DNA of 64,000 nucleotides from Dictyostelium discoideum (GCA_000004695.1 CM000151.3:1216001-1280000); one strand, 5' to 3'; counted from the stretch's first letter, positions 35,605 to 39,395 are shown. The notes: generated by a model not told the origin, from the sequence alone. Numbers and translations are program-made.

Positions 35605-38600
35605 TTATTTTTTAATTGATTTTGGTTCCATTGGAGAAGAGGAAGAACGAGTTCTAGTTAATAATTGTTCTTTAACTTTTGAAATTGGTTTTGTAATTGA
35701 ATCAGTAGTAGCAGGTTCTGAAATATTATTATCACTATCATTATTATTATTATTATTATTATTATTTAAAAGGTTTGAATTTGATGGTTGATATCTTAAT
35801 TTTGGTTTTTCAGAAGTTACAGTGGTATTATTATTATTGTTGTTATTATTAATATTATTACTATCAATTGATGGAATAATTTCTTCATTAATTATTGGTT
35901 TTGGTAATTGTTGTGGTGGTATAGTTCTTATTGAATCCCATTGTTCTCTATTTGCGTTGTATTCATCACGAATTTTTAGTAATTCTTCATAGAATTCAAG
36001 AGTAGTTGGACGAAGTGTAGAATCTTTAACGAGTGTTCTTGCGATTAAATTTTTTAAAGATTCTGGAGCATTCTCTGGTGTAGTTGGTCTAACATCCTTT
36101 TTGGCGGAAGAGATTAAGATTTGATAATCAAATTTCAAGTGTGGATATTCAGCATAGGGTAATAGATGAGTACCTTTGATACAACGATAAGTCATCTCCC
36201 ATAGAATGATACCCATTGAATAGACATCACTCTTTGTTGTATACTTTTTACCGAAATAAACCTCTGGTGCGACATAGGCATAGGTGCCTCTAAGTTTACC
36301 AAGGGTCTCTAAATTGGAACCAGTATCGAAACGACTAAGACCAAAATCACAAATTTTGACGGTCCAATTTTCGGTGACCAATAAATTTAAACTCTTTAAA
36401 TCTCTATGTAAAACTTGTGGGGTCCAATTGTGAAGGGAATCCAATGAATTGATTGCTTGTGTACCCAGATTGAAAAAGTTATCCCAAGTGAATTGAGTTG
36501 TATCATCCTTTAGAATATGATAAAGACTACCACGTGAACAATACTCCATAACGATACAAAGCTTATCCTTTATACCTGCACCATGAAAATATACAACACC
36601 TGGTGCTCTCAATGCACTAACAATTTGAAATTCCTTTTTAAACTCTGCAATATCCTTTTTATCGGTGAATGATTTCAATACCTTGATTGCTACTTCTTGT
36701 CCATTAAATGTACCTTTATATACTTTACCAGATGCACCAGTACCTAATAATACATTATAAGTTAATGTCTTTTCGTCAATAACCCAACTATCTGAATCTA
36801 AATTTATATGTTTTAATACTGATAAATCTGATACATCTAAATTTGGTCCCTCTGGTGTTACAGTTGTTGTTTTAGTTGGTGTTATAGTTGTTGTTTGTTG
36901 TTGTTGTTGTGGTGGTGTAGTTGATTCAGTAGTTGTTTTATCTTCTGTTGTTGCAGTTGTTGTTAGTGTTGTTGTTGTTGCTGCTATTGCTGTTGTAGTT
37001 GTTGTAGTTGTATTTGAACCAATTGCTACAGGTGAAGGAGCAGCAGGTGCTGAAGAAGAAGCAGGTATAGGATTTGGTGATAGTATATTATTTTTTTTAT
37101 CTTCATTATTATCATTATTTACATTGTGTATATTTTTTAAACTATTTAAATTACCTGTACTCTTACTTTCTACATTATTATTATTTAAAGTATTGTTTTG
37201 ATTTTGTGCTTTAAATCCGCCACTATTCCTATTTCCTGAACCTAAACTATCATTATTTATATTACATTGCTCTTGGCTATTATTATTATTATTGTTATTA
37301 TTATTATTATTATTATTATCATTTTCAACATGAATTAAACTATTTGATCTTAATGAAGAATTTGAACTTAATGATAAAGGATCTTTTATTTTTCTAACTG
37401 CTCTTAAAAGTTTAGTTCTTTGACCAGATACAGAAATATTTAAAAGATCCAATGTTCCCTCATTGATATCGGTTATAACATCCATATAGATTTCATTCTT
37501 TATAAATTTTGGTATCAATGTTTCCAATTGTAATTCATTTAACCAATCACTAATCTCTATTACTTTTTCAACTTTACTTATAATTTGAGGATTACCTAAT
37601 TCTTTTGCCAACTCTAATGGTGTTCTACTTGGTTTACCACCTTCTATCATAACATTTGCACCATTTTGTAAGAAAAATCTAACAAATTCAACTTTACCAA
37701 CTTTTATTGCATAATGTAATGGTGTATCTCTAGTTTTTGTTTGACTAAATATCAAAAAAAAAAAAAAAAATAAATAAATAAATAAAAAATAAAAAATTAA
37801 ATTAATATAAAATTATTTTTTTCTTTTTTTAAACTATAATAATAATAATAATAATAATAATAATAATAATAATAATAATAATAATAATAATAATAATAAT
37901 AATAATAATAATAATAATAATAATAATAATAATAATAATAATAATAATAATAATAATAATAATAATAATAATAATAATAATAAAATACATACTGATTAAT
38001 AATTGCACCTTTTTGTAAAAGTTGTTCAACAATTGTAGTTTTTTGAACTACAGTAGCTAAACAAGCTTTATGTAATGCAGTTTCACCTAAATTATTTTCA
38101 TCATTTATACCACAACCACGTTCAATTAATTTATTGATAATATCTTCACAATTTAAAGAGACATTTTTCTGTACAAATAAGTGTAATGGTGTATTACCAT
38201 GTTGATCTCTAATTGAAACTCTTGCATCGGATCCCTTTAATAACATTGTAATCAATGGTATATTATTTGATGCTGCTGCAATATGAATTGCTGGTGTACC
38301 TTCGTTATCACAAATTGTATAATCTAATTTTGCTTTATTCATCATCAATTCAATTGCTTGTGTATCATTATCTTTAATTGCTTTAATAAATGGACTTTTC
38401 TATAAAAATAAAAATAAAAATAAAAATATAAATAAAATTATAATAAAAATATAATATATAGTTAGAAATTAAACCATTATTATTATTAATTATTAAATTT
38501 TAAAAACAAATAAAAAAAAAAAAACAACATACTTCTGGTGGTGGTAATGTTTTATCTTTATCGAATCTAATTTTTAATTTAATTTCACCAGATACTTTAT

Positions 38601-39395
38601 CGTTAGGTTTCATTGGTTGAAGAGTATACCATTTAGTTGTATCTACTATATATTCTTGAATTTGTGAAACTGGTATATTTGTTAACCCCATTCTATCATC
38701 ACTACTAAATCTATCCCAATCATAAACTTCCACTGTAATCGCTAGTAAATTTACATCAATATCGCTATTTTTATATTTATATTTATAAATTATTTAATTA
38801 GTATGGTTTATAGGAATATATATTTATATATATATATCTATACTAATAATACTAATAGTTATCTTACAATTCGAAACAATTATCAGATTCCCATTTTGGA
38901 AATAATGTATGTTTAATTGCTTTGGTTTTTTTCTTTTTATCACCAACTATTACAACACCATATGGGTCACTCATTCCTATTTTTTTTATTTAAAAAAAAA
39001 AAAAAAAAAAAAAAAAATATAAATTAGCTTTAATATCTAGAGAGAGAATTAAAAAAAAAAAATTATAAAAATATTCTTACCATTGCTATCCATAGGAACT
39101 AGATTTCTACCTTCCAATACTGTATAATAAAATTTTATAATTTTATTTTTTTAAAAACAATACATTTGTTAGAATTTTAAAGGAGGAGGGGGTAATGTAT
39201 ACATTAGTGAGTGTGGTGGGGGTATTGAGATTGTTAATAATATAAAAAAAAAAAAAAATAAAAAAAATAAAAAAATATATACACAAATAATAATTAGATA
39301 AAAAACAAATAAAAGGGATATTAAAAAAAAATTAAAAAAAATAAAATTAATTAATTCTTACCCTCTATACGAACTGACCCAATTTTTCGTGCCAT
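35605..39395 (-). CDS. C2-domain / ankyrin-repeat / SAM / TKL-type protein kinase, 6 exons: join(complement(39362..39395),complement(39081..39119),complement(38868..38976),complement(38533..38764),complement(37993..38399),complement(35605..37744)); the exon 4 end is uncertain by about 1 nt
   Basis: Spliced N-terminus: MARKIGSVRIEVLEGRNLVPMDSNGMSDPYGVVIVGDKKKKTKAIKHTLFPKWESDNCFEFDIDVNLLAITVEVYDWDRFSSDDRMGLTNIPVSQI...KWYTLQP, a canonical C2 domain. Donors are GTAAGA, GTAAGA, GTAAGA, GTATGT, GTATGT; acceptors are ACAG, ATAG, ATAG, ATAG, TTAG. Phases are consistent. Ankyrin repeats: EGTPAIHIAAASNNIPLITMLL, HGNTPLHLFVQKN, GETALHKACL, DTPLHYAIKVGKVEFVRFFLQNGA. SAM: WLNELQLETLIPKFIKNEIYMDVI...LLNISVSGQRTKLLRAV. 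The kinase region reads LGTGASGKVYKG...VAIKVL...HRDLKSLNLLV...DFGLSR...YVAPE...SDVYSMGIILWE. Confidence 0.8.
37830..37981. repeat. (TAA)n microsatellite of about 50 units inside intron 5 of the kinase gene
   Basis: A perfect ataataataa run between the GTATGT donor (37987-92) and the TTTAG acceptor (37745-46). Confidence 0.9.

What the first reader, a model, noticed from the sequence alone, without database searches (positions are those of the whole stretch)
35605..39395. Unusual C2 + ankyrin + SAM + TKL-kinase architecture, with the C2 domain split over four micro-exons
A membrane-targeting C2 domain is encoded by exons of 34, 39, 109 and about 232 nt. It is followed by ankyrin repeats, a SAM domain and a tyrosine-kinase-like Ser/Thr kinase. 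This suggests a Ca2+/lipid-recruited signalling kinase. The tiny 5' exons are easily missed by ORF-based annotation, since the ORF tool reports only fragments. Intron 5 carries a perfect (TAA)n microsatellite of about 50 units.
Basis: partly seen in the sequence, partly recalled or inferred. Interest (0 to 1): 0.5.

Follow-up and report, generated by a model that had tools for sequence, protein, structure and literature searches.

The report
Known Dictyostelium C2-ankyrin-SAM TKL kinase gene

Summary
On the minus strand, six exons (34, 39, 109, 232, 407 and 2140 nt) joined by five GT..AG introns encode a 986-aa protein. Pfam finds a full-length C2 domain, ankyrin repeats, a SAM domain and a TKL-type kinase with all catalytic motifs intact. 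Intron 5 contains a perfect 49-unit TAA/TTA microsatellite.

It is not new. The first 399 residues, which span all five splice junctions, are identical to DDB0229848 (TKL group, ARK family, predicted active) in Table S2 of Goldberg et al. 2006.

Orthologues with the same four domains are annotated in five other dictyostelid genera. Three introns sit at the same position and phase in all six species. Spliced transcript contigs from Tieghemostelium lacteum and a Polysphondylium-like organism join the C2 exons to the rest of the gene. Amoeba proteus and Rhizamoeba transcripts also carry C2, Ank and kinase together.

The C2 keeps all five synaptotagmin/PKC-type calcium-binding aspartates and the polybasic strand. 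Calcium-triggered membrane recruitment of a MAP3K-like kinase is therefore the best mechanistic guess, but it is inferred, not shown.

The microsatellite is typical of this genome. Only two of the exons are really tiny. Interest is low.

The parts
39362..39395 (-). Exon 1 (34 nt): the ATG and the first 11 1/3 codons (MARKIGSVRIE-). It is followed by a phase-1 intron.
   Evidence: model. (identical to published DDB0229848). (this intron has the same alignment column and phase in all six dictyostelids).
39120..39361 (-). Intron 1 (242 nt, GT..AG, 17% GC).
   Evidence: Its position is conserved in five orthologues.
39081..39119 (-). Exon 2 (39 nt): C2 strand 1 and Ca-binding loop 1 up to ...PMDSNG.
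   Evidence: In four of the orthologues this exon is fused with exon 3 into a single 145-nt exon.
38977..39080 (-). Intron 2 (104 nt, 10% GC, phase 1). It is private to the window's lineage among the six species compared.
   Evidence: Acytostelium has an independent intron two residues away, in phase 2.
38868..38976 (-). Exon 3 (109 nt): MSDPY..., the polybasic KKKKTK strand and ...CFE.
38765..38867 (-). Intron 3 (103 nt, 12% GC, phase 2).
   Evidence: Same column and phase in all six dictyostelids.
38533..38764 (-). Exon 4 (232 nt): the C-terminal half of C2, including loop 3 (YDWDRFSSDD).
38400..38532 (-). Intron 4 (133 nt, 7% GC, phase 0), at the C2/ankyrin boundary.
   Evidence: Same column and phase in P. 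violaceum; in T. lacteum the same phase one alignment column away, next to a lineage-specific insertion.
37993..38399 (-). Exon 5 (407 nt): the first ankyrin repeats. The corresponding P. violaceum exon has the same length.
37745..37992 (-). Intron 5 (248 nt, 2% GC, phase 2).
   Evidence: Same column and phase in all six dictyostelids. The published protein reads ...GAIINHQTKTRD across this junction.
37837..37983 (.). Perfect trinucleotide microsatellite inside intron 5: (TTA)49 on the gene strand, which is (TAA)49 on the + strand.
   Evidence: regex; TRF: 51 copies, 98% matches; census of the window.
35605..37744 (-). Exon 6 (2140 nt including the TAA stop). It encodes the last ankyrin repeats, the SAM domain, an N/T/S-rich low-complexity linker, the kinase domain and an N-rich tail.
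38620..39380 (-). Genomic span encoding the C2 domain (residues 6-109), interrupted by introns 1-3.
   Evidence: PF00168, profile 1-104 of 104, E 4e-20. (ferlin, synaptotagmin and PKC C2 domains are the top solved relatives).
37606..38384 (-). Genomic span encoding the ankyrin-repeat region (residues 144-320), interrupted by intron 5.
   Evidence: (the proxy model matches DARPin and ankyrin structures, TM up to 0.87 on the target).
37384..37563 (-). SAM domain (residues 335-394).
   Evidence: SAM_1 31.4 bits against a cut-off of 23; SAM_2 21.8 against 20.5. (helical bundle at residues 324-389 of the orthologue model, pLDDT at least 90).
35983..36756 (-). TKL-type protein kinase domain (residues 604-861), with GTGASG at 608, VAIK at 625, HRDLKSLN at 720, DFG at 740 and APE at 766.
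   Evidence: CTR1, B-Raf and TAK1 are the top solved relatives. (listed as an active kinase domain in Table S2).

Best explanation
Shown. The locus is the Dictyostelium discoideum gene catalogued as DDB0229848, a member of the TKL group, ARK ('ankyrin-repeat kinase') family. It has six exons and encodes a 986-aa protein with the domain order C2, roughly six ankyrin repeats, SAM, a low-complexity linker and a catalytically intact TKL kinase. The same architecture is conserved throughout the Dictyostelia. The C2-Ank-kinase core also occurs in Tubulinea amoebae.

Inferred mechanism (my estimate about 0.55). At rest the kinase is cytosolic. A rise in cytosolic Ca2+ loads the synaptotagmin/PKC-type C2 domain, which has five Asp ligands and a polybasic strand that may bind PI(4,5)P2, and docks the protein onto acidic membranes. 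SAM-mediated oligomerisation and/or ankyrin-mediated partner binding then favour trans-autophosphorylation. The result is phosphorylation of membrane-proximal substrates in a MAP3K-like stress or cytoskeleton pathway, as for its characterised paralogues SAPKalpha/SpkA and Phg2. In function, though not in ancestry, this resembles the C2-driven translocation of conventional PKC, an enzyme that Dictyostelium lacks.
For: Gene model and domains:
- In-frame GT..AG model.
- Introns are AT-extreme, contain in-frame stops and are not multiples of 3 in length.
- Pfam finds C2, Ank, SAM and kinase, all above the curated cut-offs.

Identity with the published gene:
- The first 399 aa, covering all five junctions, are identical to DDB0229848 in Table S2 of PMC1420674.
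- The kinase-domain segments match Fig S1, and the entry is classed TKL / ARK / active.

Orthologues:
- Orthologues with the same four Pfam domains exist in P. violaceum, C. fasciculata, H. album, T. lacteum and A. subglobosum.
- Introns 1, 3 and 5 share column and phase in all six species.
- Neighbouring genes are partly shared: Mob1 and RPS29/uS14 lie beside the gene here and in T. lacteum and H. album, Mob1 alone in C. fasciculata, and S14 alone in A. subglobosum.

Transcript evidence in orthologues:
- L004 matches the T. lacteum genome in six 100%-identity blocks that skip every intron.
- L001 does the same against P. violaceum at 79-92% identity.
- Amoeba proteus and Rhizamoeba saxonica Trinity transcripts carry C2, Ank and kinase in one ORF.

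Ca2+-type C2:
- Alignment to Syt1 C2A places D22, D28, D76, D78, S81 and D84 on the ligand motifs.
- These residues are conserved in every dictyostelid and in Amoeba proteus.
- The top solved relatives are ferlin, synaptotagmin and PKC alpha/beta/gamma C2 domains.
- A model of the 64%-identical orthologue fragment shows eight strands, then helical repeats, then a helical bundle.

Kinase and family context:
- GTGASG, VAIK, HRDLKSLN, DFG and APE are all present.
- The closest solved kinases are CTR1, B-Raf and TAK1.
- The kinome paper reports no PKC in Dictyostelium and a C1 domain on ARCK-1, which is the sister branch of this kinase in Dataset S1.
- Phg2 is membrane-targeted by a PIP2-binding domain, and SpkA acts on actin and cytokinesis.
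Against: - No transcript, protein or phenotype data for the window's own gene could be reached. Two spliced-junction searches of metagenome/metatranscriptome contigs found nothing, and the exact protein is not in the searched collection.
- No paper in the library discusses DDB0229848 functionally.
- Ca2+ and lipid binding, oligomerisation, substrates and localisation are all untested.
- The C2 loops of the proxy model have only moderate or low confidence (pLDDT 47-74 in places), and that model is of an orthologue, not of this protein.
- One unidentified homologue (P0128) has lost four of the five Asp ligands, so Ca2+ dependence is not obligatory for the architecture.
- GFP-SpkA, a paralogue, did not go to Ca2+-dependent wound sites.
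- The stored Table S2 truncates sequences at 400 residues, so identity of residues 400-986 with the published model rests only on OCR fragments of the kinase alignment.
Confidence: 0.85

Rival explanations
1. The architecture is as described, but the C2 domain is not a Ca2+ switch. It acts instead as a constitutive or Ca2+-independent lipid or protein-interaction module, as in novel-PKC or PTEN-type C2 domains. Regulation would then come mainly through the ankyrin repeats, the SAM domain or upstream phosphorylation.
For: - An unidentified homologue (P0128) keeps the C2-Ank-SAM-kinase layout but has K/T/D/G/G/T at the six ligand positions.
- There are no biochemical data.
- The C2 loop regions of the proxy model have low confidence.
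- The ARK paralogue Phg2 uses a Ca2+-independent PIP2-binding domain.
Against: - All five Asp ligands, the Ser and the polybasic strand are strictly conserved across six dictyostelid genera and Amoeba proteus.
- They align residue-for-residue with the synaptotagmin-1 C2A ligand motifs.
- The best solved matches are Ca2+-dependent C2 domains of synaptotagmin-1/-7 and PKC alpha/beta/gamma.
Confidence: 0.25
2. The C2-encoding 5' exons are not part of the main kinase mRNA. They would be a separate transcript, or be skipped through an internal promoter or start such as the in-frame Met-Met at residues 158-159 in exon 5, so that the main product is an Ank-SAM-kinase like SAPKalpha.
For: - No D. discoideum transcript data could be accessed.
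- The paralogues SAPKalpha and DDB0229849 naturally lack a C2.
- A Synstelium polycarpum prediction (P0126) starts exactly at the post-C2 exon.
- An additional C2-less isoform cannot be excluded.
Against: - The curated dictyBase model used in 2006 joins all the exons.
- A T. lacteum transcript contig and a Polysphondylium-like transcript contig join the C2 exons to the Ank and SAM exons exactly at the predicted junctions.
- Amoeba proteus and Rhizamoeba transcripts encode C2, Ank and kinase in one ORF.
- Exon phases are compatible only with joining. Exons 1-4 alone end without a stop, and every intron carries stops.
- The intron at the C2/Ank boundary is phase 0, at the same column in P. violaceum and one column away in T. 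lacteum.
Confidence: 0.04
3. The locus is a decaying or catalytically dead kinase gene, that is, a pseudogene or pseudokinase scaffold.
For: - Dictyostelium has about 15 kinase pseudogenes and 29 predicted inactive kinase domains, mostly in lineage-specific families. One of them is the ARK member DDB0229850, with NFS in place of DFG.
Against: - The 986-codon reading frame is intact, with canonical splice sites.
- All catalytic motifs are present.
- Table S2 scores it 'kd / a' (active), with VAIK, HRDLKSLN and DFG.
- The gene is strongly conserved across dictyostelids: 53-64% identity over the N-terminal 399 residues and 69-71% over the best local alignment, which covers 31-43% of the query.
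Confidence: 0.02

Closest known systems
DDB0229848 (D. discoideum kinome, TKL group, ARK family; Goldberg et al. 2006, PMC1420674 Table S2)
   Same: It is the same gene. The 399 residues recovered from the truncated table are identical to the model built from the window, across all five splice junctions. The kinase motifs VAIK, HRDLKSLN and DFG match as well.
   Different: Nothing detectable. The stored table truncates sequences at 400 residues, so the C-terminal 586 residues were compared only through OCR fragments of the Fig S1 kinase alignment.
Dictyostelid orthologues: P. violaceum CYY_009307 (P0121), C. fasciculata (P0122), H. album PN500 (P0123), T. lacteum (P0124), A. subglobosum (P0125), annotated 'ankyrin repeat-containing protein' or hypothetical
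   Same: - Same four Pfam domains in the same order.
- Introns 1, 3 and 5 at the same column and phase.
- Mob1 and/or RPS29 genes beside the gene in four of the five loci.
- Ca2+ ligands conserved.
   Different: - The window has an extra intron that splits the conserved 145-nt exon into 39 and 109 nt.
- The group-2 and group-1 species carry additional 3' introns that the window lacks.
- The low-complexity linkers are not alignable.
SAPKalpha / SpkA (D. discoideum ARK family; Sun, Ma and Firtel 2003, Mol Biol Cell, cited from my own knowledge, with a function summary in PMC9564287)
   Same: - Ankyrin repeats, then a SAM-like segment, then an ARK-family TKL kinase with VAIK / HRDLKSLN / DFG.
- Its presumed orthologue P0005 is 50% identical in the kinase region.
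   Different: SAPKalpha has no C2 domain (sequence). It is experimentally characterised as stress-activated and as affecting actin, cytokinesis and chemotaxis, whereas DDB0229848 is not characterised.
ARCK-1 / ArkA and Phg2 (other ARK-family kinases)
   Same: - Same kinase family. ARCK-1 is the sister branch of DDB0229848 in Dataset S1.
- Each carries a different membrane or second-messenger module on an ARK kinase: C1 and RGS on ARCK-1, a PI(4,5)P2-binding domain on Phg2.
   Different: The lipid-binding module differs (C1 or a PIP2-binding domain rather than C2). Phg2 has no ankyrin/SAM arrangement as far as I know (own knowledge; not checked here).
Conventional protein kinase C (PKC alpha/beta/gamma)
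   Same: A Ca2+-type C2 domain N-terminal to a Ser/Thr kinase. PKC C2 domains are among the best solved matches (E about 1e-15). The expected logic is the same: Ca2+-driven membrane translocation.
   Different: - The kinase domain is TKL (closest to CTR1, B-Raf and TAK1), not AGC.
- There is no C1 domain and no pseudosubstrate.
- It has ankyrin repeats and SAM, which PKC lacks.
It is not a PKC family member. Dictyostelium has no PKC.
Animal TKL kinases with one of the accessory modules: ZAK/MLTK (kinase + SAM); ILK, TNNI3K, RIPK4/ANKK1 (ankyrin + kinase). Cited from my own knowledge.
   Same: A TKL-group kinase combined with either ankyrin repeats or a SAM domain.
   Different: None combines C2, Ank and SAM. 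The domain order differs (the SAM lies C-terminal in ZAK, the ankyrin repeats C-terminal in RIPK4). No orthology is implied, since Goldberg et al. class ARK as Dictyostelium-specific.

Membership tests
C2 domain (Pfam PF00168), Ca2+-dependent synaptotagmin/PKC type | Full-length match to the family profile above the curated threshold | tested here: met
   72.4 bits against a cut-off of 22, E 4e-20, residues 6-109 on profile positions 1-104 of 104.
C2 domain (Pfam PF00168), Ca2+-dependent synaptotagmin/PKC type | Eight-stranded beta-sandwich fold | tested here: met
   the AlphaFold model of the 64%-identical orthologue fragment P0001 shows eight strands between residues 4 and 129.
C2 domain (Pfam PF00168), Ca2+-dependent synaptotagmin/PKC type | Five acidic Ca2+ ligands in loops 1 and 3. 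These correspond to Syt1 C2A D172, D178, D230, D232 and D238, plus S235; that numbering is from my own knowledge. | tested here: met
   pmD...sDpy and yDwDrfSsdD align to alD...sDpy and yDfDrfSkhD of synaptotagmin-1; conserved in all dictyostelids and in Amoeba proteus.
C2 domain (Pfam PF00168), Ca2+-dependent synaptotagmin/PKC type | Ca2+-dependent binding to acidic phospholipids | not testable with these tools
   This needs liposome-binding or live-cell translocation assays.
TKL group, ARK family of Dictyostelium protein kinases (Goldberg et al. 2006) | Canonical eukaryotic protein kinase catalytic motifs (Gly-loop, VAIK Lys, HRDxKxxN, DFG, APE) | tested here: met
   GTGASG at 608, VAIK at 625, HRDLKSLN at 720, DFG at 740, APE at 766. 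Pkinase E 6e-45 and PK_Tyr_Ser-Thr E 2e-47.
TKL group, ARK family of Dictyostelium protein kinases (Goldberg et al. 2006) | The kinase domain is closest to TKL-group kinases rather than to AGC, CAMK or TK kinases | tested here: met
   the top solved relatives are CTR1 (E 1.5e-36), B-Raf (1e-32) and TAK1 (3e-31).
TKL group, ARK family of Dictyostelium protein kinases (Goldberg et al. 2006) | Placement in the ARK clade of the kinome tree, or listing as a family member | tested here: met
   Sequence identity to DDB0229848, which Table S2 lists as TKL/ARK and Dataset S1 places next to ARCK-1 and SAPKalpha. The tree itself was not recomputed here.
TKL group, ARK family of Dictyostelium protein kinases (Goldberg et al. 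2006) | Ankyrin repeats N-terminal to the kinase domain. The family name suggests this; it is not universal, since Phg2 and DDB0229850 lack them. | tested here: met
   (Ank_2 E 7e-37, residues 144-320). (the model matches DARPins and ankyrin, TM up to 0.87).
SAM domain (Pfam PF00536 / PF07647) | Profile match above the curated threshold, and a five-helix bundle | tested here: met
   SAM_1 31.4 bits against 23, and SAM_2 21.8 against 20.5, residues 335-394; helices over residues 324-389 of the orthologue model, pLDDT at least 90.
SAM domain (Pfam PF00536 / PF07647) | Homo- or hetero-oligomerisation | not testable with these tools
   This needs SEC-MALS, AUC or two-hybrid assays.
Conventional protein kinase C (considered as a functional analogue only) | AGC-group kinase domain with a C-terminal AGC tail | tested here: not met
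   no Pkinase_C match, and the nearest solved kinases are TKL (CTR1, B-Raf, TAK1).
Conventional protein kinase C (considered as a functional analogue only) | Tandem C1 (DAG/phorbol-ester) domains | tested here: not met
   no C1 family among the Pfam hits at E up to 0.01.
Conventional protein kinase C (considered as a functional analogue only) | Ca2+-type C2 domain | tested here: met
   PKC alpha/beta/gamma C2 domains match at E about 1e-15 to 1e-14, and the ligand aspartates are present.

The most novel reading that the evidence does not exclude
Amoebozoa lack PKC (stated for Dictyostelium in PMC1420674). In this lineage the two second-messenger modules that define conventional PKC may have been recruited independently onto sister TKL/ARK kinases: C2 onto DDB0229848 and C1 onto ARCK-1. 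On this reading DDB0229848 is the amoebozoan Ca2+/PIP2-triggered membrane-translocating kinase, a convergent stand-in for cPKC that feeds a MAP3K-like stress or cytoskeleton pathway. It might also supply the unidentified kinase activity in the Ca2+ branch of hyperosmotic/STATc signalling described in PMC3934975. The ligand set is conserved from Dictyostelia to Amoeba proteus, which would make this an ancient amoebozoan signalling device rather than a Dictyostelium oddity.
Probability: 0.15. Interest if true: 0.45.

Novelty: already known. Interest (0 to 1): 0.12.

Why it matters
As a discovery it matters little. The gene, its exon structure and its family assignment have been public since the 2006 kinome paper, and orthologues are annotated in five other dictyostelid genomes.

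Three modest points of value remain:
- It is a clean positive control, showing that the first-stage reader can reconstruct a multi-exon AT-rich eukaryotic gene, including 34- and 39-nt exons, from raw sequence.
- The comparison made here documents that the C2-Ank-(SAM)-TKL architecture, with its full set of Ca2+ ligands, is conserved across Dictyostelia and reaches Tubulinea. The 2006 paper called the ARK family Dictyostelium-specific.
- The protein is an uncharacterised but plausible Ca2+-responsive kinase in an organism without PKC. It is therefore a reasonable knock-out or GFP-translocation target for people working on Ca2+ signalling, wound repair or osmotic stress in Dictyostelium.

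Tried and rejected
1. Exact-sequence look-up of the spliced 986-aa protein in the 15-billion-protein collection: absent. The source organism's own record seems not to be in that collection, so identification had to come from the kinome paper's supplement.
2. Spliced-junction searches in metagenome/metatranscriptome contigs, for the exon 2/3 and exon 5/6 junctions: 0 hits each. Direct transcript evidence for the window's gene could not be obtained.
The orthologue fragment P0001 was modelled instead.
4. Foldseek of that model against the PDB: dominated by ankyrin-repeat and DARPin hits, so it says nothing specific about the C2.
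5. Lead that the gene might be Pyk2 or Pyk3, the 'two TKLs that differ in domain organisation' of PMC4196871: rejected. Those papers mention no C2, ankyrin or SAM domain, and their gene IDs are for other loci.
6. Literature searches for a functional study of this protein, using C2 + ankyrin + SAM + Dictyostelium, DDB0229848, SAPKalpha and ARK-family names: nothing gene-specific.
7. First version of my exon-finding script crashed, and the rerun mis-placed the last Acytostelium exon. This was corrected by hand from the annotated gene end.
8. Microsatellite as something special: rejected after the census of the window.
9. tRNA scan of the window: none found.

Full report
**1. What is in the sequence**

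| Exon | Coordinates | Length |
|---|---|---|
| 1 | 39395-39362 | 34 nt |
| 2 | 39119-39081 | 39 nt |
| 3 | 38976-38868 | 109 nt |
| 4 | 38764-38533 | 232 nt |
| 5 | 38399-37993 | 407 nt |
| 6 | 37744-35605 | 2140 nt, including TAA |

All five introns begin GT and end AG. The CDS is 2961 nt, in frame, and encodes 986 aa. The finding's start and end are exactly the stop and start codons.

Introns are 2-17% GC and exons 28-44%. Every intron carries in-frame stops and has a length that is not a multiple of three, so none can be read through.

The microsatellite is a perfect (TTA)49 on the gene strand at 37983-37837. TRF reports 51 copies at 98% matches over 37836-37987. It fills most of the 248-nt intron 5.

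**2. Domains**

Pfam reports:
- C2: residues 6-109, covering the whole profile (1-104 of 104), E 4e-20.
- Ankyrin families: residues 144-320 (Ank_2 E 7e-37).
- SAM_1: residues 335-394 (31.4 bits against a cut-off of 23).
- PK_Tyr_Ser-Thr / Pkinase: residues 604-861 (E 2e-47 and 6e-45).

The kinase has GTGASG, VAIK, HRDLKSLN, DFG and APE. Its closest solved relatives are the TKL kinases CTR1, B-Raf and TAK1. Between the SAM and the kinase lies a linker of about 195 residues rich in N, T and S, and the C-terminal tail is N-rich.

**3. Identity**

The exact spliced protein is not in the large protein collection. A peptide search of the supplements of the Dictyostelium kinome paper (Goldberg et al. 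2006, PMC1420674) hit Table S2. There, DDB0229848 is listed as TKL group, ARK family, 'kd', 'a' (active), with VAIK / HRDLKSLN / DFG, and its sequence begins MARKIGSVRIEVLEGRNLVPMDSNG....

The stored table cuts sequences at 400 residues. The 399 residues I recovered are identical to my model and span all five splice junctions. OCR fragments of the Fig S1 kinase alignment also match.

The window is therefore D. discoideum, and the six-exon model, small exons included, was the curated model in 2006. The Fig S3 legend lists C2, Ank and SAM among the motifs drawn on Dictyostelium kinases; the figure itself is an image I could not read.

In the paper's tree file, DDB0229848 is sister to ARCK-1, next to SAPKalpha and DDB0229849/50/47. 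The paper calls ARK one of six Dictyostelium-specific TKL families. It also notes that Dictyostelium has no PKC but has C1 domains on ARCK-1 and two other kinases.

**4. Comparative support for the gene model**

A full-length search found annotated orthologues carrying the same four Pfam domains in Polysphondylium violaceum, Cavenderia fasciculata, Heterostelium album, Tieghemostelium lacteum and Acytostelium subglobosum. I fetched their genomic loci and derived exact exon structures by constrained splicing of each annotated protein. I then mapped the introns onto a protein alignment:
- Introns 1, 3 and 5 of the window fall at the same column and phase in all six species.
- Intron 4, at the C2/ankyrin boundary, is at the same column and phase in P. 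violaceum. In T. lacteum it has the same phase but aligns one column away, next to a lineage-specific insertion.
- Intron 2 is private to the window. It splits what is a 145-nt exon in four of the orthologues into 39 and 109 nt.
- Acytostelium independently splits the same exon two residues away, in a different phase.
- The 34-nt first exon recurs in P. violaceum and H. album, and the 407-nt exon recurs in P. violaceum.

Neighbouring genes are partly shared. A Mob1 fragment (about 40.9-41.1 kb) and a ribosomal S29/uS14 gene (about 42.9-43.0 kb) lie 5' of the gene in the window. Both appear beside the orthologues in T. lacteum and H. album, Mob1 alone in C. fasciculata, and S14 alone in A. subglobosum.

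**5. Transcript evidence (orthologues only)**

L004 is a 3065-nt assembly from sequencing run ERR3252994. It carries the whole T. lacteum protein as one ORF and matches the T. lacteum genome in six collinear 100%-identity blocks that skip every predicted intron.

L001 is a 1461-nt JGI contig that encodes C2-Ank-SAM without interruption. It matches P. violaceum genomic DNA at 79-92% identity in blocks that skip the introns.

Trinity transcripts of Amoeba proteus (P0127, P0233) and Rhizamoeba saxonica (P0003) encode C2, Ank and kinase in a single ORF. The arrangement therefore pre-dates the Dictyostelia.

For the window's own gene I could get no RNA evidence, since two spliced-junction searches returned nothing. 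An additional C2-less isoform cannot be excluded.

**6. How it probably works**

HMMER aligns the window's C2 onto synaptotagmin-1 C2A. The motifs pmD...sDpy and yDwDrfSsdD fall on alD...sDpy and yDfDrfSkhD. These are the five aspartates and the serine that coordinate Ca2+ in Syt1 and PKC C2 domains; the residue numbering is from my own knowledge.

All six positions, together with the KKKKTK strand that corresponds to the polybasic PIP2-binding strand, are conserved in every dictyostelid orthologue and in Amoeba proteus. They are lost in one unidentified homologue, P0128. The best solved relatives are ferlin, synaptotagmin-1/-7 and PKC alpha/beta/gamma C2 domains.

An AlphaFold model of the 64%-identical orthologue fragment P0001 (mean pLDDT 83) shows eight strands, then paired helices, then a helical bundle. 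The repeat region matches ankyrin and DARPin structures.

My best explanation is Ca2+-triggered docking of a catalytically competent MAP3K-like TKL kinase onto acidic membranes, with SAM and ankyrin providing oligomerisation or partner binding. This fits the ARK family's habit of placing different membrane modules on the same kinase: C1 on ARCK-1 and a PIP2-binding domain on Phg2. All of it is inferred. I put the Ca2+-switch step at about 0.55.

**7. Comparison with what is known, and novelty**

The thing itself is already known as DDB0229848. I found no paper that studies its function.

It works like a conventional PKC in its C2 logic but fails PKC membership: the kinase is TKL rather than AGC, and there is no C1 domain. 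The closest characterised relative is SAPKalpha/SpkA, which has Ank, SAM and an ARK kinase but no C2.

The architecture is unusual compared with animal kinomes. Animal TKLs carry Ank or SAM, and as far as I know never C2, Ank and SAM together. Within Amoebozoa, however, it is conserved.

The microsatellite is ordinary for this 23.5%-GC genome. The window holds 13 perfect trinucleotide runs of at least 12 units, including runs of 46 and 36 units.

**8. Verdict**

The novelty rating is 'already known'. Interest is low (0.12).

The most novel reading left open is that this is the amoebozoan Ca2+-responsive stand-in for cPKC, paired with the C1-bearing ARCK-1. I give that about 0.15.

Noticed in passing
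window 40624-40723: A run of exactly 100 N, which is an assembly gap. It sits in the AT-rich intergenic region about 1.2 kb upstream of the kinase gene's start codon, between the kinase and the Mob1-like fragment.
   Followed up: partly
window 40916-41134 (+) and about 42896-43040 (+, within ORF 42620-43063); loci L003, L005, L006, L007: A Mob1/phocein fragment (Pfam E 3e-4, below the curated cut-off) and a ribosomal protein S29/uS14 gene (E 5e-11) lie 5' of the kinase. Both are annotated beside the orthologues in T. lacteum and H. album, Mob1 alone in C. fasciculata, and S14 alone in A. subglobosum, so the gene neighbourhood is partly conserved.
   Followed up: partly
window 29702-33334 (+) and 33473-35311 (+): Two adjacent ORFs carry an SNF2-related domain and then RING finger + Helicase_C. 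They are probably one RAD5/HLTF-like gene split by a short intron. It converges on the kinase gene, with only about 290 bp between the two stop codons, and it contains very long poly-Asn tracts, including an (AAT)-type run of 36 units at 30015-30122.
   Followed up: partly
window 27301-27438: A perfect 46-unit TAT/ATA run lies immediately after the ATG of the mechanical ORF 22870-27441 (-), which encodes a Kelch-repeat + RhoGAP protein. Read in that frame it would be poly-Ile, so the true start or an intron boundary probably lies downstream.
   Followed up: no
window 11644-17247 (+); 55354-59931 (-); 17762-20836 (+); 50328-53657 (-): Other large ORFs in the window: an FNIP-repeat protein of 1867 aa (11 repeats), an Spt6 homologue of 1525 aa, and two long ORFs of 1024 and 1109 aa with no Pfam match at E up to 1e-5.
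   Followed up: no
P0126 (EukProt EP01133, Synstelium polycarpum): The predicted orthologue (762 aa) begins MVKKNPLIKAIK..., exactly at the first exon after the C2 domain, and has no C2. This is probably an automated gene prediction that missed the small 5' exons. No DNA was available to check.
   Followed up: partly
P0128 (Logan contig, organism unknown): This homologue has the C2-Ank-SAM-kinase layout, but its C2 has K/T/D/G/G/T at the six Ca2+-ligand positions. It is a likely Ca2+-independent variant of the same architecture.
   Followed up: no
L001 1215-1230: The Polysphondylium-like transcript contig has a one-base frame shift in an A-run relative to P. violaceum. It reads ...TIKK* and then continues in another frame, which truncates the called protein P0001 right after the SAM domain. 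This is probably a sequencing or assembly error in a homopolymer.
   Followed up: no
window 39425-39575: The 150-bp stretch just upstream of the start codon is almost pure oligo(T) on the gene strand, interrupted by A (TRF period 1, 79% matches). This is typical of Dictyostelium promoter and 5' regions.
   Followed up: no
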